DNA of 64,000 nt. Origin: an uncultured Clostridium sp. (lineage in GTDB: Bacteria; Bacillota_I; Bacilli_A; RF39; UBA660). The stretch is taken from contig CABULC010000002.1 in assembly GCA_902492325.1 (NCBI GenBank), positions 262,411-326,410 on the forward strand. Direction: 5' to 3'. The translations under genes were made by a program, and so were the position numbers. The first letter of the stretch is position 1; every line of letters begins with the position of its first letter. Under the pieces are notes generated by a model. It was not told where the DNA came from, did no database searches, and worked only from the letters and a program-made list of their open reading frames with translations. Positions 2,395-64,000 of the stretch are shown here, one piece after another.

Positions 2395-4080
2395 CTACTT
2401 AAAATTAATATAATTGTTTTTATCAAATGAATTAATATAATTTATTAGTTCATTTTTATATTTTAAATTACGTTTACATATAAATTTTATATCAACAATT
2501 TCTGCTATAGTGTTATTAAGTTCAAATAAGTATTTTTTAACAGTATCATTATATTCATTAATGATATCTTGTCTATTCTTAGATATTTCATATAAGAAAT
2601 ACATAAGCATTCCACCGCCAACAAATATAACAATAATACCTAAATATAATTTTATGAACGCTAAGATCAAACCAACAACAATAAATATCGCACAATATAC
2701 AGTTTTTGGAGAAATATATTGTTGTTCCTGAGAATCTGCTTCGAAAGGCTTTTTAACATATTCTGTTAAAGAATCTTGTAATTCTTTTTCATTACTTCCA
2801 TCTTTTGTAGTTCCAGTCCATTCATTAATTTTTATTTGAATGTCATTATCGTTAGATTCATCCTCATTACCAAATACTTCATCAAAACCTTTGACAATAT
2901 TTTGTTTCGTTAATGAAATAGCTAGTTTTTTTGTAGATAATGAAACATCATCTCTATTTAATATTATATTTGTAAGCTCATTGCCAAAGTTATTTTTAAT
3001 ATTTAATGTGTTATTATATATTTCATATTTTTTATTAGCTTCTTCAACATTTCCTTTGCATTCTATAATTAATTTATTTTTTAATATAGCTTTTCTAAGA
3101 TCAGCTTCATTTTCTTCATAACTAAATAATAAATTATTTAAAAGTTCATCTATACTTTTTTCTTTTTGATCATCTTTATCTAATAATCTTAAGAATTTAG
3201 CATAAGCATTGTTATAAGAGTAGGAAAGAGCTAATTTATTTTTTAGTTTATCAAAATCTTTAACATAGTCGGCAGAAAATGGATATTCACTATTTTCTAC
3301 TACATCAATAGTATCACTAAAAAACTCTCTCCATCTTTCTATTTGATAGTTATTAACATTATCATTACTACTAAGTTTATTACACCAATCATCTATATAA
3401 GAAAGAATCAAATCAGTCATTTTAATACTATAAGCATCATTAACAAGTGATTCTAAAACATTTATAATATCATTATCCATACTATTAGGATTTTGTGTGT
3501 CTAAATATCTTTTTAACCATTTAAGAGCAGTATCATTTCTATTAAGTCTTAGATGTATCAAACAAAAAAGTAATGATGTTTTACTATCATTTAAACTAAG
3601 AGCTTTATTTAGTGCTTTACGAGCTAATTTTCTTTCATTTCTAAACCATGCACATAATGCGACTAATGCATAAGATAAATAATAGTCTGGTGTATTTAAT
3701 AAAGATTGTTCACTTTGAGTAAGCAAAGTATTTTTCTTTATAGTATTTAAATCCATACTATTTAAAATACCATTTATCTTTCTACGAATTAAATCATAAT
3801 GTCCATATTTTTTATTTAGTTCATTTTCTTTTAATAATATTTCATTTTGAGCATTAGATACTAGTGAAGAACCTCTAACTTCTAACATAAAATCTTTTAT
3901 TTCTTGTTCTAAAGATTTAACATTTGTCTTAAGAGTATCTACTTGACTATTAAAATCATTAATTTGCCCGTTAATATCAACAACGTCACCAGCAACACTA
4001 GACATGTTTTCAGATAAAACTTTTAAACTTTTTTCTAGTGCATCCATATCTCTTTTTTGTATAGCAGTTATTGTTGTCAT
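2395..4080 (-). CDS. 561-aa membrane-associated protein. N-terminal coiled coil, TPR-like helical middle region, two-helix TM hairpin (residues ~455-500) and ~60-aa C-terminal tail. First gene of AAA operon
   Basis: ORF with GAGGTGG RBS; hydrophobic segment VYCAIFIVVGLILAFIKLYLGIIVIFVGGGMLMYFLY; stop TAG lies inside RBS of next gene. Confidence 0.7.
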   Translation of the reverse strand: MTTITAIQKRDMDALEKSLKVLSENMSSVAGDVVDINGQINDFNSQVDTLKTNVKSLEQEIKDFMLEVRGSSLVSNAQNEILLKENELNKKYGHYDLIRRKINGILNSMDLNTIKKNTLLTQSEQSLLNTPDYYLSYALVALCAWFRNERKLARKALNKALSLNDSKTSLLFCLIHLRLNRNDTALKWLKRYLDTQNPNSMDNDIINVLESLVNDAYSIKMTDLILSYIDDWCNKLSSNDNVNNYQIERWREFFSDTIDVVENSEYPFSADYVKDFDKLKNKLALSYSYNNAYAKFLRLLDKDDQKEKSIDELLNNLLFSYEENEADLRKAILKNKLIIECKGNVEEANKKYEIYNNTLNIKNNFGNELTNIILNRDDVSLSTKKLAISLTKQNIVKGFDEVFGNEDESNDNDIQIKINEWTGTTKDGSNEKELQDSLTEYVKKPFEADSQEQQYISPKTVYCAIFIVVGLILAFIKLYLGIIVIFVGGGMLMYFLYEISKNRQDIINEYNDTVKKYLFELNNTIAEIVDIKFICKRNLKYKNELINYINSFDKNNYINFK

Positions 4081-58703: not shown

Positions 58704-60458
58704 ATGAAAAAAACATTAAAAGTAATTTTATCTATAGTACTATTAATATCAATATCTATACTTATTTATTGCTTTTATAACAAAGATATTAAAATATCAA
58801 ATGATGCATTAATAGGAAACAACCTATATAAATTTAAACTAACTAAAGATTATGAACAAATCTTAACAATTAAAGATGAAGGTAAATACTTATATACTTT
58901 AATTTCAGTAATAAATGATAAAGATTCAGAAGAAAATGAATATATTTTAAAAAAGATAAACATAGAGACTTCTAAAAGTGAAAAAGAAGTATCTTTTAAA
59001 ACCACAATTATACAAGATCCAATAATAACATTAGATGATAAATATATAAAAGTAATCTCAAGAGGAAACTTAAATGTTCATAAATTTGATAAAGACTTTA
59101 AATTAGTAAACGAACTAACAACTCCAGTAGAGGAATATAACTCATATGGAGAATATAATGATCAAGTACTATCAACAAAAGACAATAATATTTATTTAGA
59201 TGGTAAACTTTATGATACAGTATTAAAATCATGCGATACTGCATACAACATTATATATAAAGACAATACATATATTTATTTTAATAATTCTAATTTAAAT
59301 GTTAGTTGTTTATATAATGTTGATACTAAAAATATAGAATATTTAGATAATTCAAATGTTGAACCATTCTCTAATGGATATTTAACATATAACTATAAAG
59401 ACAACAAAATAGCAATAAAAAAGAATACTGAAGAAAAATATTATTTAAATTCAAAAGATGAAACAGCATTTATAGCTATAACAAACGATGGTAATACACT
59501 TGGAACATTTAATGATAATATTAGTGAGTTTAAAGTGTATGATTTAATTAACAAGAAAATAATTAATAAACTTAAGATTAAATTTGAAGAAGAATATTAT
59601 GTTCCATTAATGTTAATGAGTGATTATATGTATATAGTAGAAACAAATGGAGATAATTATGATCTTTATATTTGGGATTATAAAAAAGATGTAACAAGTG
59701 AAAACATGGTTAGCTATAGTAATTCTAAAGATAAAATCGATAGTTATGAATTAGCTACTAAAATAAAAGATGAATTTGGTGTAAATATGTATATCTATGA
59801 TAAGGGGGTAAGATACTTTACTGATTTTTATGCACTTCCAACTTATGATGATGAATTAACATATGATAGATTATCTAAAACATATGATATATTAAAAAAC
59901 TTTAATAAAGAATTCTTTAATAAATTTAAAATGAATAAAAATAATGGGCTTGAAATATATATAACAGGCGAGTTAGGTCCTAGTGATACAAAAACTCAAG
60001 TATCATATCCAGTAGGTTACTCACTAACAATGGATGATAATTATATAATCGCATTAGATGCAAATAGTGATGAATATGAAAAAACAGTATGTCATGAACT
60101 AATGCATAGTATAGAAAATAATATGTATGATTTATATTATAATAGTAAGATAAAAACAGAACCATTTAAAAAGTGGAATTCTTATAATCCTAAAAATTAT
60201 AAATATGATGATTCGTATGTAAAAGAGGAAAATGATAAATACACAATTGCAAGTAATAAAGATGTTTACTTTGTTGATGCATATTCACATACATACGCTC
60301 ATGAAGATAGAGCAAGAATATTTGAGTCACTTTGTGGGTCAGAAGATATATTTAGTAAATATCCAAACATAAAGAAAAAGGCATTATATCTAAGAAATGA
60401 GATAATTAAAGTATATCCAAGCATAAAAGATTCTAAACTTTTTAGTACTCTTAACTAA
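58704..60458 (+). CDS. Signal-anchored 584-aa N/Y/K-rich protein with HELMHS motif (putative extracytoplasmic zincin)
   Basis: N-terminal TM, CHELMHSIEN and downstream HEDRAR. Confidence 0.5.
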   Translation: MKKTLKVILSIVLLISISILIYCFYNKDIKISNDALIGNNLYKFKLTKDYEQILTIKDEGKYLYTLISVINDKDSEENEYILKKINIETSKSEKEVSFKTTIIQDPIITLDDKYIKVISRGNLNVHKFDKDFKLVNELTTPVEEYNSYGEYNDQVLSTKDNNIYLDGKLYDTVLKSCDTAYNIIYKDNTYIYFNNSNLNVSCLYNVDTKNIEYLDNSNVEPFSNGYLTYNYKDNKIAIKKNTEEKYYLNSKDETAFIAITNDGNTLGTFNDNISEFKVYDLINKKIINKLKIKFEEEYYVPLMLMSDYMYIVETNGDNYDLYIWDYKKDVTSENMVSYSNSKDKIDSYELATKIKDEFGVNMYIYDKGVRYFTDFYALPTYDDELTYDRLSKTYDILKNFNKEFFNKFKMNKNNGLEIYITGELGPSDTKTQVSYPVGYSLTMDDNYIIALDANSDEYEKTVCHELMHSIENNMYDLYYNSKIKTEPFKKWNSYNPKNYKYDDSYVKEENDKYTIASNKDVYFVDAYSHTYAHEDRARIFESLCGSEDIFSKYPNIKKKALYLRNEIIKVYPSIKDSKLFSTLN

Positions 60459-60508
60459 ACTTGACAAATTTTAATAAAAGTATATAATATTTCCACACGG
60501 GGGATATT

Positions 60509-60973
60509 ATGATATTATCAATAATAGATAAATATGTACAGTTATGTGTTGACAGATTAAGATTAGAACAAATTCTTAAAAAGACAGAAGAAAGACATGA
60601 TGAATCTCTTTCGAATGAAATAAGCGCAGAACTATATAGATTAAATCAATCAATAAACTTTATACATGAATGTATTATGAAAAGACTTAGTACATCAACA
60701 CCAGGATCACTTTCAGACATAAATAAGTGCTTAGAACGTAAATCTACAAAAGTGAGAAAAGATATAACTGTTTCAGAAGCAACAATAAAAATGATGAAAG
60801 ACAATGCTAAAGTTGCTATTGCAAACAGCGATAAAACTGCTGCTAAAAGATATAAAGAATTATTAGAAGAAAGTGAAGCCAAAAGAAAAGAACAATTAGA
60901 AGAACTTAATTGTTATGATTGCGTAGCGAGTATTTGTAGTAAAGTACAATATTTATCATTAAGGACTAAATAA
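60509..60973 (+). CDS. Hypothetical 154-aa helical protein immediately upstream of retron locus
   Basis: ORF with GGGGGAT RBS. Confidence 0.45.
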   Translation: MILSIIDKYVQLCVDRLRLEQILKKTEERHDESLSNEISAELYRLNQSINFIHECIMKRLSTSTPGSLSDINKCLERKSTKVRKDITVSEATIKMMKDNAKVAIANSDKTAAKRYKELLEESEAKRKEQLEELNCYDCVASICSKVQYLSLRTK

Positions 60974-61019
60974 AAAATTTATATAATTAGAAAAATTAGT
61001 GTTCGAAATGGACATAAAA

Positions 61020-61049
61020 AAAGACACATAGTTGTTACCTATGTTACAA
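61020..61049 (+). promoter_or_regulatory. Candidate extended -10 promoter (TGtTACAAT) for retron transcript
   Basis: tatgttacaat at 61039-61049. Confidence 0.3.
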
Positions 61050-61083
61050 TGTAAGTGCGAACAAACATTGGAGGTAATATACT

Positions 61084-61266
61084 ATGCGTCTTTTAAATTA
61101 TAACAAAAAAACAAAGAGATATAAACATATAACTTTAGCAGAAAGAACAATGATAGAAACATTGTTTAAAAAGAAGTACTTAACTTATAAGGTGGACCTT
61201 ATTATTTCCATTTATAAATTAGAAATACTTTCTGTTTTATTATGGTGTTTAAATAATAAAATATGA
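61084..61266 (+). CDS. 60-aa ORF with IS30-transposase-N-terminus-like HTH (KHITLAERTMIETL)
   Basis: GGAGG RBS 9 nt upstream; HTH_38-like pattern. Confidence 0.35.
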   Translation: MRLLNYNKKTKRYKHITLAERTMIETLFKKKYLTYKVDLIISIYKLEILSVLLWCLNNKI

Positions 61267-61466
61267 TATAATAATTTTGAGCAATAGTGTTTGGAGTTAA
61301 TCCTACTTTAGCGAGTCGTTAAAGAATCAAAATTAGATGAAATATTAAATGGTAATATTACGAGGGACTTTCCTACACGAGGTGTAGCCGCTTCATTGCA
61401 TTCCGCTTTAAGTCCATCTTCATATTACAATATCATTAAGTATTGCTCTTCCAGGAGGTAATAAAT
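61267..61466 (+). ncRNA. Candidate retron msr/msd non-coding RNA
   Basis: Directly upstream of retron RT on same strand. Ec86-like cttTAGCGAG element at ~61302-61313 (putative branching-G context). Long imperfect hairpin 61352-61370 / 61410-61428 with internal ctacac-gag-gtgtag hairpin. a1/a2 not confidently located. Confidence 0.4.
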
Positions 61467-62417
61467 ATGTGGAAATATATTGATAAAGAAAAATCAAAAG
61501 AATTTTTATTATCTCTTGGATTATTAAATGATAACATAAGTGATAAAGATAAAATAATTAAATTGTATTCTATAAGTAACAACGTAGAAAAGAACTATAA
61601 AATATTTAAAATAAAGAAAAGAAATGGTAAATATAGAACTATATACGAACCTAATTATACTTTAAAAGAAATACAAAAAAATATTCTAAATAATATATTA
61701 AATAATAAAAAAATATCTGTTTATGCCAAAGCATATCATAAAGGTATAGGACTAATTGATAATGCAAAAGAACATGTTAATAAAAAGTTAATACTTAAAT
61801 TAGATATAAAAGATTTCTTTGAAAATATTAGTTTTATTGATGTATATAATAGTTGCTTTGAAATAGAATATTTTCCTAAAGAAATAGGTATTCTTTTAAC
61901 TCATTTATGTACTTATAAAGAGCATCTTCCACAAGGAGCTCCAACTTCATCATATATTTCAAATCTTGTACTAAAAGAATTTGATGAATATATCGGAGAA
62001 ATTTGTAAAGAAGAAAATATATCATACACTAGATATTCTGATGATATGACATTTAGTGGAGACTTTAATCCATCAAAGATTATAACTATTGTTAAGAAAG
62101 AGTTAAGAAAATATAACTTAGAGCTTAACAACGAAAAGATACATGTAATTAGAAATCATAAATGTCAAAAAGTAACAGGATTAGTTGTAAATAATAAAGT
62201 ACAAACACCAATAAACTATAGAAAAAATATTAGAAAAGAAATATTTTATATAAAAAAATATGGACTAGATTCACACCTAGAACATAATAATATTAAGAAT
62301 AGTAATAAATATTTAAATGAACTTTACGGAAGAATATTATTTGTATTACAGATAAACAACACAAATGAGTTTAAAGAATATAAAGAATTTATTTCAAAAT
62401 TAAAATCACATAATTAA
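61467..62417 (+). CDS. ret: Retron-type reverse transcriptase (Ec86/Eco1-like)
   Basis: RTIYEPNYTLKEIQKNIL, LDIKDFFENI, LPQGAPTSSYISNLVL, YTRYSDDMTFSG (YxDD), retron hallmark KVTGLVVNNKV; 317 aa with no maturase, endonuclease or HNH domains; GGAGG RBS before ATG 61467. Confidence 0.9.
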   Translation: MWKYIDKEKSKEFLLSLGLLNDNISDKDKIIKLYSISNNVEKNYKIFKIKKRNGKYRTIYEPNYTLKEIQKNILNNILNNKKISVYAKAYHKGIGLIDNAKEHVNKKLILKLDIKDFFENISFIDVYNSCFEIEYFPKEIGILLTHLCTYKEHLPQGAPTSSYISNLVLKEFDEYIGEICKEENISYTRYSDDMTFSGDFNPSKIITIVKKELRKYNLELNNEKIHVIRNHKCQKVTGLVVNNKVQTPINYRKNIRKEIFYIKKYGLDSHLEHNNIKNSNKYLNELYGRILFVLQINNTNEFKEYKEFISKLKSHN

Positions 62418-62436
62418 ATGTGATTTCTTTTTTTAA
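62403..62436. terminator. Bidirectional terminator spanning the overlapping convergent stop codons of RT and the 183-aa gene
   Basis: Perfect 9-bp inverted repeat aaatcacat/atgtgattt, 6-nt loop aattaa (contains both stops), ctttttttt downstream. Confidence 0.6.
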
Positions 62437-62965
62437 GTTTAAGTGATCCACTAAAAGTTCCTTTAAATGGTTTACCATCAAGTTCACCATCTAAATAGAA
62501 TGATCCTTCATATGTTTCAGCAAAAGGTTCATTATCTAACTTAGAAGATGATATTTCTTCTTCACATACGTGACTAAAGTAATTTGATACTTTATTAAGA
62601 TAATCATTATTATTAAAATAACTTTCGGCGTTTTCTTTACTTATTTTTCTTACTCCTAAAGCTGAAGAGTATTTTGCGCAAAGTTTTTTACCTGTAACTA
62701 CTTCATGAGCAACAAGATCACTTGTTCCAGCAGCAATTAAATATGTAGGAACTTTTTCTATAGAATACATTCTTTTAGTTTCTTTATTATGTGCTTTAAG
62801 TTCTTTTTCAGGAATAGGTTCAAAAATTCTAGTGGAATATAAAATATCAATTCTTTCATCTTCTCTTTTTGAAAGAACAGGGAATACTCTATCAAATATA
62901 TCTTTTAGAGATTCACCATTATAATATATTGCATCTTCTACAACTGGTATTAAATAGTATTTCAT
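62414..62965 (-). CDS. Hypothetical 183-aa protein convergent with retron RT
   Basis: ORF with GAGGTGA RBS. Confidence 0.5.
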   Translation of the reverse strand: MKYYLIPVVEDAIYYNGESLKDIFDRVFPVLSKREDERIDILYSTRIFEPIPEKELKAHNKETKRMYSIEKVPTYLIAAGTSDLVAHEVVTGKKLCAKYSSALGVRKISKENAESYFNNNDYLNKVSNYFSHVCEEEISSSKLDNEPFAETYEGSFYLDGELDGKPFKGTFSGSLKLKKRNHI

Positions 62966-63054
62966 AATTCACCTCATTTGTTGTATGATAGCATTTTATC
63001 ATTTAAAAGTAAATCGAAATGTGTTATAATTTAGTGAAATAAAGGAGTGATGAT

Positions 63055-63762
63055 ATGAAATTTGAAGTATCAAAAGATTTTTTTGATAAGGTAGAGGATG
63101 CAGTTTTTGGAGTTGTTGTAGTTAAAAACTTTGATAACAAGGTTTCATACGACTACATCAACAAAATGTTTGATGAAAGTTTAAAATCCTCAAAAGAAAA
63201 ATTCTTAAACGTAAAGATTAAGGAAGAAGCATGGATTTTACCATATAGAGAGGCATTTAGAAGCCTAAATATAAATCCAAATAAATATATGAGTTCTATA
63301 GAAGCATTAATGACAAGAATATCTAAAGGTAATGATATTCCACATATTAACCCAATGGTTGATTTAGGAAATGCATTATCTTTAAAGTATGAGTTACCAA
63401 TCGGTGTTCATGACATTGATAATTTTATAGATGGAGATATTCAAATAAGAGAAAGCAATGGTAATGATAATTTTATTCCTTTCGGAAGTACAGAAGTTGA
63501 GCATCCAGAAGTAGGGGAAATCATCTACGCATCAGGAAATGAAGTTAAAACTAGAAGATGGACATGGAGGCAAGGAGAAAGAAGTAAAGTAACTGAAGAG
63601 TCAAAAGATTTCTTTATTCCAATCGATGGCTTCACATCTAATAAAGATAAAATTGTTGAACTACAAGATGAATTAGTTAAATACTTGAAAGACGATTTAA
63701 AACTAGAAGTATATAGTGGAATCGTAGATAAAGACAATAGAATATTTGAAATAGAGGAGTAA
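63055..63762 (+). CDS. B3/B4 tRNA-binding domain protein
   Basis: PMVDLGNALSLKYELPIGVHDID. Confidence 0.65.
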   Translation: MKFEVSKDFFDKVEDAVFGVVVVKNFDNKVSYDYINKMFDESLKSSKEKFLNVKIKEEAWILPYREAFRSLNINPNKYMSSIEALMTRISKGNDIPHINPMVDLGNALSLKYELPIGVHDIDNFIDGDIQIRESNGNDNFIPFGSTEVEHPEVGEIIYASGNEVKTRRWTWRQGERSKVTEESKDFFIPIDGFTSNKDKIVELQDELVKYLKDDLKLEVYSGIVDKDNRIFEIEE

Positions 63763-63867
63763 AACCTCTATTTTTTTAATAAAAATTTAATTTTATAGTT
63801 GACAGGCAGAAATTCTTCTAGTATAATGAATTATGCAATTCAAGAAAGCGAATACTTTCTAAAATAT

Positions 63868-63941
63868 GCAGGTGTAGTTTAATGGTAGAACTTCAGCCTT
63901 CCAAGCTGCTAACGTGGGTCCGATTCCCATCACCTGCTCCA
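63868..63941 (+). tRNA. trnG: tRNA-Gly (anticodon TCC)
   Basis: gcaggtgtagtttaatggtagaacttcagccTTCCaagctg...ggtccgattcccatcacctgctcca, near-identical to Bacillus tRNA-Gly(UCC). Confidence 0.9.
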
Positions 63942-64000
63942 GAAGCAAAAATCGTCGCACCAAAGCGATGTTAATGATTAAATCAATCAGAAATGATTGA

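What the first reader, a model, noticed from the sequence alone, without database searches (positions are those of the whole stretch)
60990..62440. Retron locus: Ec86-like reverse transcriptase with upstream structured ncRNA and a small HTH ORF, but no recognisable effector
The 317-aa ORF at 61467-62417 aligns motif-by-motif with Retron-Eco1 (Ec86) RT as I remember that sequence. Matched pairs are RTIYEPNYTLKEIQKNIL vs RTIYQPSRELKALQGWVL, LDIKDFFENI vs LNIDLEDFFPSL, LPQGAPTSSYISNLVL vs LPQGAPSSPKLANLIC, YTRYSDDMTF vs YTRYADDLTL, and the retron-specific KVTGLVVN vs KVTGLVIS. The protein is too short for a group II intron RT, which would carry maturase or endonuclease domains. The ~200 nt upstream on the same strand are non-coding and structured. 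They contain a cttTAGCGAG element resembling the Ec86 a1/branching-G context CCTTAGCGAGAGG, and a long imperfect hairpin of ~15 bp over 20 nt plus an inner ctacac-gag-gtgtag hairpin, which would fit an msd stem. A 60-aa IS30-like HTH ORF with a near-duplicate RBS context (ggaggtaatatactATG vs ggaggtaataaatATG) precedes this region. The RT is closed off by a bidirectional terminator. The flanking genes are a 154-aa helical protein upstream, a convergent 183-aa protein, and a B3/4-domain protein, none of which matches a known retron effector class (OLD-ATPase/HNH, NDT, 2TM, PRTase, TOPRIM, protease, cold-shock). This is either a new effector association, an HTH-type retron, or an effector-less retron.
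Basis: partly seen in the sequence, partly recalled or inferred. Interest (0 to 1): 0.85.

Follow-up and report, generated by a model that had tools for sequence, protein, structure and literature searches.

The report
Stand-alone Ec107-type retron, no effector
This is a real retron: a reverse transcriptase with its own promoter and a conserved structured RNA template, of the same kind as the E. coli retron Ec107, and like Ec107 it has no partner "effector" gene beside it, which is the one retron type whose biological role is still unknown.

Summary
ORF 61467-62417 (+) encodes a 316-aa retron reverse transcriptase. The ~190 nt upstream are a conserved msr-msd ncRNA with its own extended -10 promoter.

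In 70 homologous loci from uncultured AT-rich gut Bacilli, 34 base pairs in 6 helices are 98.9% paired. 23 pairs show compensatory changes, against 2-8 in slid controls.

The RT scores best on PADLOC's RT_Ec107-like model: 409 bits, against 437 for genuine E. coli Ec107. It is 39% identical to the Ec107 RT over its full length. A covariance model built only from the Bacilli loci finds the real Ec107 msr-msd, modestly (E 0.017).

"cttTAGCGAG" is an msr hairpin, not a1 or the branching G; a1 is 61280-61286 and the likely branching G is 61287. The 60-aa "HTH" ORF is broken in conspecific strains.

No neighbour is conserved across about 75 species. The 183-aa gene also occurs without the RT, one relative has an empty site, and no PRTase or winged-helix protein is nearby.

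Verdict: a new, large lineage of the already described orphan (Ec107-like) retrons. It almost certainly makes a ~100-nt msDNA. Its role remains open.

The parts
61264..61272 (+). Extended -10 promoter TGATATAAT of the retron transcript. The start site is inferred at about 61279.
   Evidence: TGnTATAAT is conserved at the same distance upstream of a1 in nearly all of 85 loci. The start site is inferred, not mapped.
61280..61286 (+). a1, the 5' arm (AGCAATA) of the duplex that closes the ncRNA.
   Evidence: It pairs with 61441-61447. All 7 pairs show compensatory changes, for example GCAGUA/UACUGC against GCAAUA/UAUUGC; 97.9% of cells are paired.
61287..61287 (+). Candidate branching (priming) G, immediately 3' of a1.
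   Evidence: It is near-invariant (G14 of the first sequence) and sits opposite the invariant G 61440. E. coli Ec107 has the same GCAAUA-G context. The priming role is inferred.
61293..61303 (+). msr hairpin 1 (GGA ... UCC).
   Evidence: Helix 2: 3 pairs, all with compensatory changes, 97.1% paired.
61306..61324 (+). msr hairpin 2: an 8-bp stem CUUUAGCG/CGUUAAAG with a 3-nt AGU loop (conserved GAGUC). It is the likely RT recognition hairpin.
   Evidence: Helix 3: 8 pairs, 5 with compensatory changes, 99.5% paired. Mean majority-base fraction is 0.94. The same GCGAGUCGC hairpin is present in E. coli Ec107 and in a B. mycoides type III-A retron.
61325..61351 (+). AT-rich variable linker. The predicted stop of reverse transcription lies within it.
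   Evidence: It is less conserved, 0.70. The stop position is inferred from the CM alignment to Ec107 and the 107-nt msDNA length implied by the Ec107 name; it is not measured.
61352..61439 (+). msd, the template for the msDNA. Outer stem GUAAUA 61352-57 / UAUUAC 61423-28. Middle stem 61365-68 / 61412-15. Inner hairpin 61373-78 / 61383-88. Variable second hairpin 61390-61406. Conserved initiation tract AAUAUC.
   Evidence: Helices 4-6 are 98-100% paired and 8 pairs show compensatory changes. The reverse complement, folded as DNA, gives the same Y-shaped structure, z = -1.97. The tip of the variable element covaries (G-C to A-U; U-A to C-G) in alignment A2.
61440..61447 (+). Invariant G followed by a2 (UAUUGCU), the 3' arm of the closing duplex.
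   Evidence: G167 of the first sequence is invariant in 70 sequences. Pairing with a1 is shown.
61454..61458 (+). Shine-Dalgarno GGAGG for the RT.
   Evidence: GGAGGU is nearly invariant, 8 nt before the ATG.
61467..62417 (+). Retron reverse transcriptase, 316 aa, with NAKEH (region X), YSDD catalytic box and VTG (region Y).
   Evidence: PADLOC RT_Ec107-like 3e-123, full length. Every PDB hit is a retron RT. 39% identical to the Ec107 RT, E 2e-83. N99, A100, H103, Y190-D193 and V236-G238 are conserved in 25 homologues.
62403..62434 (.). Hairpin AAAUCACAU/AUGUGAUUU with flanking A- and T-runs. It is a probable bidirectional terminator shared with the convergent 183-aa gene. The RT stop codon lies in its loop.
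   Evidence: I9. A palindromic hairpin sits at the equivalent position in the empty-site genome L103 and the NT5C-variant genome L105. It was not called by the consensus scan.

Best explanation
Window 61264-62434 is a self-contained, roughly 1.17-kb stand-alone retron cassette of the Ec107 (Retron-Eco5) type.

**How it is built and works:**
- One promoter drives a single transcript. That transcript carries the ~170-nt msr-msd ncRNA (61280-61447) and then the RT mRNA.
- The RT, through its C-terminal region Y, is expected to bind the msr hairpins. The main candidate is the 8-bp/3-nt-loop GAGUC hairpin.
- The a1/a2 duplex places G61287 at the active site. The 2'-OH of this G primes reverse transcription.
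- Synthesis runs from about 61439 back to about 61340. Host RNase H removes the template.
- The product is a multicopy branched RNA-DNA molecule (msDNA) of roughly 100 nt with a Y-shaped stem.

**What is shown:** RT family, promoter conservation, ncRNA structure and covariation, homology to Ec107, and the absence of any conserved neighbouring gene.

**What is inferred:** the branching G, the msDNA ends, and msDNA production itself.

**Biological role (inferred, about 0.4):** an accessory module that is gained and lost. Its RT-msDNA complex would act as a phage or stress sensor together with a partner encoded elsewhere in the genome, or on its own, rather than with a cis effector.

The confidence of 0.85 refers to the identity and msDNA-making mechanism, not to the biological role.
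For: **RT family**
- Best PADLOC model is RT_Ec107-like, 409 bits over the full length. Genuine Ec107 RT scores 437 bits on it.
- Genuine type III-A RTs prefer RT_III-A instead: 507 and 409 bits, against 340 and 320 on RT_Ec107-like.
- BLASTP of the family to Ec107 gives 225-258 bits. To type III-A RTs it gives 179-224 bits.
- All PDB hits are retron RTs.

**ncRNA**
- 34 pairs; 98.9% of cells paired; 23 pairs with compensatory changes against 2-8 in slid controls; 0 of 500 shuffles reach the observed values.
- The CM gives one strong hit in the 64-kb window (172.6 bits). It gives a hit directly upstream of the RT in all 80 species loci, and none in the RT-less relatives L103 and L105.
- The same CM finds the real Ec107 msr-msd on the right strand, aligned over its full length, at 21.5 bits and E 0.017.

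**No cis effector**
- Among 139 nearest neighbours from about 75 species, no family occurs in more than 9 (generic ABC/AAA ATPase matches: 9 in PADLOC, 8 in Pfam). No retron effector family recurs.
- The 67 other window proteins show no PRTase, NDT or other retron effector.

**Cassette behaviour**
- A related genome has the same flanks but only 9-11 nt and a palindrome where the 1.19-kb cassette sits.
- This mirrors Ec107, which replaces a 34-bp palindromic intergenic sequence with no mobility genes nearby (PMC6868368).

**Prior literature**
- Stand-alone msr-msd-RT cassettes in the Ec107 branch are already described (PMC7736814).
Against: - No msDNA has been observed for this element. The branching G and the msDNA ends come from analogy only.
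- The CM hit to Ec107 is modest (E 0.017). A spurious opposite-strand hit of similar score (24 bits) on a type III-A locus, driven by the palindromic hairpin, shows that scores at this level rest largely on a few elements.
- Local percent identity is slightly higher to Firmicute type III-A RTs (43-46%) than to Ec107 (39%). No phylogenetic tree was built.
- Only 5-10 kb around each RT was inspected, so a trans partner cannot be seen or excluded.
- In 6 species a small AAA_15/AAA_21 ATPase abuts the retron promoter. It could be a lineage-specific effector.
Confidence: 0.85

Rival explanations
1. The retron has a novel cis effector among its window neighbours: the convergent 183-aa protein, the 154-aa helical protein, or the 60-aa HTH ORF (a type-VI-like HTH retron).
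For: - The 183-aa gene overlaps the RT stop by 4 nt and accompanies the RT in the window's species and in one 64%-identity relative.
- The 60-aa ORF has a weak HTH_38 match, E 0.01.
Against: - The 183-aa protein has only 10 homologue clusters.
- In related species it sits at the same place without the RT: next to TetR in L103, or next to an NT5C gene in L104-106.
- The 154-aa gene is separated from the RT by a variable spacer or a 3.8-kb ABC/TetR cassette. It also occurs without the RT in L104.
- The 60-aa ORF carries frame-breaking indels in conspecific strains and is absent elsewhere.
- None of these hits PADLOC or NCBIfam.
- RT_VI scores 205 bits against 409 for RT_Ec107-like.
Confidence: 0.03
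2. It is a decaying relic: a former type III-A retron that lost its PRTase and winged-helix effectors and now persists without function.
For: - The closest Firmicute relatives on plasmids are complete type III-A retrons, PRTase - WH - ncRNA - RT.
- Mestre et al. suggest the Ec107 branch lost its associated protein (PMC7736814).
- The cassette is absent from a sister species.
Against: - The RT ORF is intact in essentially all of the 93 loci examined; L081 looks disrupted and L073 runs off its contig. Catalytic YSDD, NAxxH and VTG are invariant or nearly so in the 25 aligned homologues.
- The promoter, Shine-Dalgarno sequence and ncRNA helices are maintained by compensatory substitutions across at least 70 lineages whose RTs are only 58-70% identical.
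- Conservation is high in functional elements (0.83-0.94) and low in spacers (0.44-0.57).
- This pattern indicates purifying selection, not decay.
Confidence: 0.05
3. It is a domesticated retron with a non-defence cellular role, for example a stationary-phase or starvation-linked msDNA function. It would be inherited largely vertically in a lineage of small-genome gut Bacilli.
For: - It sits among housekeeping genes, not in a defence island.
- Synteny is stable within sub-lineages, for example L018/20/21/22, L037/49/53/61 and L076/83/89.
- It is present in a 1.2-Mb circular MAG, L059.
- Both msd sequence and structure are conserved.
- No close relatives are found on phage or plasmid records.
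- Ec107 expression rises on phosphate starvation and in stationary phase (PMC6868368, citing Herzer 1996).
- Mestre et al. raise domestication as a possibility for restricted clades (PMC7736814).
Against: - Presence, absence and replacement at one site among close relatives, and different contexts between genera, look like an accessory gene.
- Only a subset of related genomes carries it; 308 pattern matches were found.
- No phenotype is known for any orphan retron.
Confidence: 0.25
4. The RT is not a retron RT but belongs to group II introns, DGRs, Abi RTs or DRT systems.
For: Weak cross-matches to Drt2 (57 bits), Drt3a (50 bits) and group II RT (49 bits).
Against: - These scores are far below the family cutoffs (390, 200 and 300) and far below the retron scores (216-409 bits).
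- There is no group II intron or other Rfam RNA in 59000-64000.
- There is no template/variable repeat pair of the kind a DGR needs.
- The a1/a2-flanked ncRNA with covariation is the retron hallmark.
Confidence: 0.01

Closest known systems
Retron-Eco5 (Ec107) of E. coli, and the stand-alone 'orphan' branch of retron RT clade 2 (Mestre et al. 2020, PMC7736814)
   Same: - RT of the same length (316 vs 319 aa), 39% identical end to end, and the same best HMM.
- Non-canonical YxDD box: YSDD here, YCDD in Ec107.
- The ncRNA shares a1+G (GCAAUAG), the GCGAGUCGC hairpin and G+a2 (GUAUUGC). It is found by the Bacilli-only CM.
- No adjacent effector.
- Sits between housekeeping genes as a bare insertion that replaces a short palindromic intergenic sequence (PMC6868368).
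   Different: - Different phylum. Clade 2 was reported as mostly Gammaproteobacteria; these hosts are uncultured gut Bacilli with 26% G+C.
- msr hairpin 1 and the msd helices differ in sequence and length.
- msDNA is shown experimentally for Ec107 but not here.
- The family here is large: at least 80 species-level genomes at 58% identity or more, and 308 pattern matches.
Type III-A retrons (PRTase + winged-helix + ncRNA + RT), e.g. Bacillus mycoides plasmid pl208, Vagococcus lutrae pK136-2-B, Retron-Eco11 (III-A3)
   Same: - Second-best RT family: RT_III-A at 350 bits, with 43-46% local identity.
- The B. mycoides ncRNA region carries the same CUUUGGCG-AGU-CGCCAAGG hairpin and an ACAAUAG a1-like element.
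   Different: - No PRTase_III-A or WH_III-A gene next to the RT, in this window or in about 75 related species.
- These genes are present and score 306 and 100 bits in the true III-A locus.
- The RT is about 25 aa shorter at the N-terminus.
Retron-Eco1 (Ec86), type II-A3
   Same: - General retron plan: a1/a2 duplex, priming G opposite an unpaired G, msr hairpins, msd stem, and an RT with NAxxH/YxDD/VTG.
- It is the closest solved structure (7v9u, E 1.6e-29).
   Different: - Ec86 has an NDT-like effector plus a DNA-binding protein. None is present here.
- The RT match is much weaker: 107 bits, against 242 to Ec107.

Membership tests
Retron (msr-msd ncRNA + retron RT) | The RT carries the retron-specific region X motif NAxxH, the YxDD catalytic box, and the VTG triplet that opens region Y (Simon et al. 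2019, PMC6868368). | tested here: met
   NAKEH at residues 99-103, YSDD at 190-193, VTG at 236-238. These positions are invariant or nearly invariant in 25 homologues.
Retron (msr-msd ncRNA + retron RT) | The RT is closer to retron RT families than to other prokaryotic RT classes. | tested here: met
   The top 25 PADLOC hits are all retron RT models. All 15 PDB hits are retron RTs or unnamed RNA-directed DNA polymerases; none is labelled as another RT class. NCBIfam gives retron_St85_RT 216 bits, against Drt2 57 and group II 49.
Retron (msr-msd ncRNA + retron RT) | A structured ncRNA lies directly upstream on the same strand, closed by the inverted repeats a1/a2. | tested here: met
   All 7 pairs of the a1/a2 helix have compensatory changes. 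The whole structure is 98.9% paired, against 32-53% when slid. CM hits lie immediately upstream of the RT in 80 of 80 species loci.
Retron (msr-msd ncRNA + retron RT) | A conserved priming G at the inner end of a1. | tested here: met
   G61287 is at least 90% conserved and faces the invariant G61440. Its 2'-5' priming function cannot be tested here.
Retron (msr-msd ncRNA + retron RT) | Production of branched multicopy single-stranded DNA (msDNA). | not testable with these tools
   This needs expression plus RNase A / urea-PAGE or sequencing.
Ec107-like stand-alone (orphan) retrons, Mestre clade 2 branch | The RT groups with the Ec107 RT rather than with effector-linked clades. | tested here: met
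   RT_Ec107-like scores 409 bits, above RT_III-A at 350. Controls: Ec107 itself gives 437 and 313, and true III-A RTs give the reverse order. BLASTP bit scores favour Ec107. No tree was built.
Ec107-like stand-alone (orphan) retrons, Mestre clade 2 branch | The ncRNA is homologous to msr-msd Ec107. | tested here: met
   A CM built without Ec107 hits L096 2737-2924 (-) over the full model length at 21.5 bits, E 0.017. a1/a2, hairpin 2 and the inner msd hairpin all align. The significance is modest.
Ec107-like stand-alone (orphan) retrons, Mestre clade 2 branch | No specifically associated protein-coding gene. | tested here: met
   Neighbour clustering over 93 loci. PADLOC and Pfam scans of 139 nearest neighbours. 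The 183-aa gene is found without the RT.
Ec107-like stand-alone (orphan) retrons, Mestre clade 2 branch | Taxonomic range reported for clade 2 (mostly Gammaproteobacteria). | tested here: not met
   All 80 loci come from gut Bacilli / 'Tenericutes' MAGs. This is a range extension, not a defining molecular feature.
Type III-A retron | Adjacent PRTase-like effector and winged-helix protein. | tested here: not met
   There are no PRTase_III-A or WH_III-A hits among the window proteins or the neighbours in about 75 species. The positive control locus L107 scores 306 and 100 bits.
Type VI (HTH) retron | A conserved small HTH protein encoded with the RT, and an RT of the type VI clade. | tested here: not met
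   The 60-aa ORF is not conserved and is frame-broken in conspecific strains. RT_VI scores 205 bits against 409.
Group II intron / DGR / DRT reverse transcriptases | Family-level RT match plus the cognate RNA or repeat architecture. | tested here: not met
   group_II_RT_mat scores 49 bits (cutoff 300) and Drt2 scores 57 bits (cutoff 390). There is no intron RNA in Rfam and no TR/VR-like repeats.

The most novel reading that the evidence does not exclude
This is a large family of genuinely effector-free retrons, maintained by selection, in small-genome uncultured gut Bacilli. The RT-msDNA complex would work by itself or with a housekeeping host factor, either as an immune sensor of a new kind or in a non-defence cellular role. 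That would break the 'retrons are tripartite toxin-antitoxin systems' rule.
Probability: 0.3. Interest if true: 0.8.

Novelty: new member of a known kind. Interest (0 to 1): 0.45.

Why it matters
**The open question.** Orphan Ec107-like retrons are the one retron class with no known partner or phenotype. They were left out of the phage-defence tests that defined retron function (Millman et al. preprint 10.1101/2020.06.21.156273). They were flagged as unresolved by Mestre et al. (PMC7736814).

**What this locus adds:**
- The class is not confined to a few Gammaproteobacteria. It forms a large family under purifying selection in uncultured gut Bacilli.
- Its ncRNA is recognisably homologous to Ec107 across phyla.
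- It has natural empty-site and replacement alleles.

**What that makes possible:**
- A comparative data set of RT-positive and RT-negative sister genomes, in which a trans partner can be sought.
- A compact 1.2-kb RT plus ncRNA cassette, free of any toxic effector, that may be useful for retron-based DNA production.

The locus does not itself reveal a new mechanism.

Tried and rejected
- **Rfam**, E-value mode on 59000-64000: only the tRNA and chance miRNA/snoRNA matches. There is no retron model in Rfam for this RNA.
- **First fold of 61240-61470 alone:** z = -0.47, uninformative because promoter and RBS flanks were included. Trimming to 61278-61450 gave z = -2.5.
- **Consensus terminator scan:** 0 sites. 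The hairpin after the RT is too A+T-rich for the rule.
- **Supplementary tables of Mestre et al. 2020:** not held, so I could not check whether these Bacilli RTs were already in their set. Khan et al. (PMC10849725) does not mention Ec107 or orphans.
- **Literature searches** for retron + RF39 and for 'orphan retron': nothing specific.
- **Hidden overlapping gene inside the RT:** considered and rejected. No alternative frame is open in most loci; the median longest stop-free stretch is at most 50 codons.
- **The 61000-61260 segment as part of the ncRNA:** considered and rejected. It is replaced or indel-ridden within the species and is not conserved across species.
- **CM on two type III-A loci:** only an opposite-strand, hairpin-driven hit. 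I therefore treat CM scores around 20 bits with caution.
- **One failed call** from a wrong frame.
Full report
**1. What is at the coordinates**

The window is A+T-rich (26% G+C). Its proteins are ordinary chromosomal housekeeping proteins: Mur ligases, CTP synthase, phosphoketolase, D-Ala-D-Ala ligase, MscL.

It matches Pfam RVT_1 at 3.6e-23. Its best PADLOC hits are all retron RT models. Every hit among solved structures is a retron RT or an unnamed RNA-directed DNA polymerase; the named ones are Ec86, Kva2, Ec78, Ec83, Ec67 and Eco8.

Scores for other RT classes are far below their cutoffs: Drt2 57 bits, group II intron RT 49 bits. The retron score in the same library is 216 bits.

The retron signature motifs are present: NAKEH (region X), YSDD, and VTG (start of region Y). 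They are conserved in 25 homologues (motif definitions from PMC6868368).

**2. Which retron**

| Query RT | RT_Ec107-like (bits) | RT_III-A (bits) |
|---|---|---|
| Window RT | 409 (3e-123, full length) | 350 |
| Genuine E. coli Ec107 RT | 437 | 313 |
| B. mycoides type III-A RT | 340 | 507 |
| Vagococcus type III-A RT | 320 | 409 |

- I obtained the real Ec107 element by looking for E. coli genomes whose slmA-pyrE pair is split. The locus is L096, with the RT at 1745-2704 on the minus strand.
- The window RT is 39% identical to the Ec107 RT from end to end, 242 bits, E 2e-83.
- The two genuine type III-A RTs come from Bacillus and Vagococcus plasmids. They have adjacent PRTase_III-A (306 bits) and WH_III-A (100 bits) genes, and they show the opposite score order.
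- Composition-adjusted BLASTP bit scores also link the family more strongly to Ec107 (225-258) than to III-A RTs (179-224). Local percent identity is slightly higher to III-A.
- I did not build a tree.

**3. The ncRNA**

*Source of the comparison.* A scan of one genome per species returned 308 matches. The 80 best have 58-98% RT identity. All are MAGs of uncultured gut Bacilli, labelled 'Tenericutes', 'Mollicutes' or 'Erysipelotrichaceae', from humans, rabbits, mice and ruminants. One is a 1.2-Mb circular genome.

*What the upstream alignment shows, in order:*
- an extended -10 promoter TGnTATAAT (window 61264-61272);
- a1 (61280-61286) followed by a near-invariant G (61287);
- two msr hairpins (61293-61303 and 61306-61324);
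- an A+T-rich linker;
- a long msd stem with an inner hairpin and a second hairpin of variable length (61352-61428);
- a conserved AAUAUC tract;
- an invariant G (61440) followed by a2 (61441-61447);
- a variable spacer;
- GGAGG and the ATG.

*Support for the structure.*
- RNAalifold predicts exactly this structure.
- On 70 distinct sequences, 34 pairs in 6 helices are 98.9% paired. 23 pairs have changes on both sides.
- No shuffle out of 500 reaches these values. Sliding the 3' partners by 1-3 columns gives 32-53% pairing and 2-8 such pairs.
- Conservation is 0.83-0.94 in functional elements, 0.57 in the variable element and 0.44 in the spacer.
- The window sequence alone folds into the same structure as RNA (z = -2.5). 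The reverse complement of the msd folds the same way as DNA (z = -1.97).

*Covariance model.* A model built from these loci gives one strong hit in the whole window (61276-61466, 172.6 bits). It gives a hit immediately upstream of the RT in all 80 species loci, including those not used to build it. It gives none in RT-less relatives.

**4. Homology of the ncRNA to Ec107**

- The same model, which contains no proteobacterial sequence, hits the real Ec107 msr-msd (L096 2737-2924, minus strand). The hit lies directly upstream of the Ec107 RT and aligns over the full model length at 21.5 bits, E 0.017. a1/a2, hairpin 2 and the inner msd hairpin are all aligned.
- By eye, Ec107 has GGCAAUAGCGUUU, GUCGGCGAGUCGCUGAC and GGUAUUGCC. 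The window has AGCAAUAGUGUUU, CUUUAGCGAGUCGUUAAAG and AGUAUUGCU at the matching places.
- The GAGUC-loop hairpin also occurs in the B. mycoides type III-A retron.
- A caution: on that locus the model's best hit was an opposite-strand match driven by this palindromic hairpin (24 bits). Scores near 20 bits therefore rest on few elements.

**5.

- 'cttTAGCGAG' is the 5' arm and loop of msr hairpin 2, not a1 or the branching G.
- The 60-aa ORF (61084-61266) has only a sub-threshold HTH_38 match.
- Among strains of the same species this ORF carries a 41-nt deletion (L002, L015, L016) or an 11-nt insertion (L005). In L003 and L004 the segment around window 60982-61212 is replaced by a 3.8-kb ABC-transporter/TetR cassette. 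The ORF is absent in all other species. It is not part of the system.

**6. No cis effector**

- Clustering all ORFs around 93 RT loci shows no neighbour shared across species. The intergenic gap upstream of the RT is almost always at least 190 nt.
- Among the 139 nearest neighbours of 80 aa or more, from about 75 species, no family occurs in more than 9. The commonest are generic ABC/AAA ATPase matches (9 in PADLOC, 8 in Pfam). Others are LexA, P-type ATPase and 3-hydroxyacyl-CoA dehydrogenase.
- The only defence-like recurrent neighbour is a 288-302-aa AAA_15/AAA_21 ATPase, directly upstream of the retron promoter in six closely related species.
- None of the other 67 window proteins hits a retron effector model.
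- The 183-aa convergent protein has only ten homologue clusters.
- In one relative (64% identity) it again sits next to the RT. In another (62%) it directly abuts TetR with no RT or ncRNA. In a third (66%) a 192-aa NT5C-family gene occupies the RT's slot.

**7. The cassette as a unit**

- Aligning these alleles shows that 1,192 nt, from just after the TetR stop to just before the 183-aa stop, are replaced by about 9 nt in the empty-site genome. That genome keeps a palindromic hairpin there.
- There are no flanking repeats or mobility genes.
- This is the behaviour described for Ec107, which replaces a 34-bp palindromic intergenic sequence (PMC6868368).
- No relative above 60% identity occurs on phage or plasmid records.

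**8. Mechanism**

*Shown:* a promoter, a conserved msr-msd, an RT with intact catalytic and retron-specific motifs, and co-inheritance of the three.

*Inferred from established retron biochemistry (PMC6868368):*
- RT region Y binds an msr stem-loop. For Ec86 this is an 8-bp stem with a 3-nt loop, the same geometry as hairpin 2 here.
- The 2'-OH of the G next to a1 primes cDNA synthesis on the msd.
- RNase H trims the template.
- A branched msDNA of about 100 nt accumulates.

*Role.* What the msDNA-RT complex then does is unknown for this whole class. Ec107 was excluded from the defining phage assays (10.1101/2020.06.21.156273). Mestre et al. left open either a trans effector or a different function (PMC7736814). 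I favour an accessory sensor role with a partner not encoded next to it, because of the gain, loss and replacement pattern. A domesticated non-defence role is a serious rival (0.25), given the housekeeping context, the within-lineage synteny and the sequence-level conservation of the msd.

**9. Novelty and score**

- Stand-alone Ec107-branch retrons are already described, so this is a new member, in fact a large new lineage, of a known kind.
- What is new is the host range, the cross-phylum conservation of the ncRNA, and the natural empty-site and replacement alleles.
- Interest is moderate at 0.45. The finding sharpens a recognised open question but does not answer it.

**10. Limits**

- There is no experimental msDNA.
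- No phylogeny was built.
- Only 5-10 kb was inspected around each RT.
- Host taxonomy is known only from record titles.
- I could not check whether these RTs were already in published retron catalogues.

Noticed in passing
L103:4001-5163; L104-L106:4001-5127; compare window 61213-62434: The slot between the TetR side and the 183-aa gene is a swap site among related species. It holds the retron cassette, or nothing (about 9 nt plus a palindromic hairpin), or a 192-aa NT5C-family (PF06941) gene with its own TGTATAAT promoter and the same 4-nt convergent overlap.
   Followed up: partly
L009:4926-5792 (also L010-13, L062, L065, L068, L090, L091): A 288-302-aa AAA_15/AAA_21 ATPase ends 193-211 nt before the RT, directly at the retron promoter, in six closely related species. 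It has PtuA/AriA-like C-terminal matches and no nuclease domain. It could be a lineage-specific retron effector or just local synteny.
   Followed up: partly
L064:2822-3199: Two tandem ncRNA matches lie before one RT: an intact copy at 2822-3011 (192.7 bits) and a degenerate copy at 3023-3199 (33 bits). This suggests a local duplication of the msr-msd.
   Followed up: no
window 60975-61110 (inverted repeat 61019-61032 / 61081-61094): A 14-nt, 93%-complementary inverted repeat would sequester the SD and ATG of the 60-aa ORF. This ~135-nt stretch is almost invariant among conspecific strains even though the ORF body carries frame-breaking indels. It may be a conserved RNA or regulatory element, or an IS30-like remnant.
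   Followed up: partly
window 60982-61212 vs L003:1970-5746: A 3.8-kb cassette (ABC ATPase, MacB/FtsX-type permease, TetR regulator) is present or absent between the 154-aa gene and the retron in strains of the same species.
   Followed up: partly
window 63868-63938; L001:8570-10767: A tRNA (anticodon loop reads UCC, Gly; 64.9 bits) lies near the window end. In the longer contig L001 it is followed by a 91-aa ORF and a 604-aa large serine recombinase. This is probably an integrated element just beyond the window.
   Followed up: no
L009-L011, L013, L014 (e.g. L009:6955-8085): In the loci of a 66%-identity RT homologue, a serine recombinase gene converges on the RT and overlaps its 3' end by 6 nt. 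Mob/relaxase genes follow. A mobile element appears to have integrated right at the RT's 3' end.
   Followed up: no
L107:3575-3615: The ncRNA region of the B. mycoides pl208 type III-A retron contains ACAAUAG followed by the hairpin CUUUGGCG-AGU-CGCCAAGG. This is the same GAGUC-loop hairpin as in Ec107 and in this family, so it may be a shared RT-recognition element for the whole Ec107/III-A group.
   Followed up: partly
window 58704-60458: A 584-aa protein with an N-terminal hydrophobic segment and an HExxH-like motif (CHELMH) has no Pfam, PADLOC or NCBIfam match. It is conserved next to the 154-aa gene in related species.
   Followed up: no
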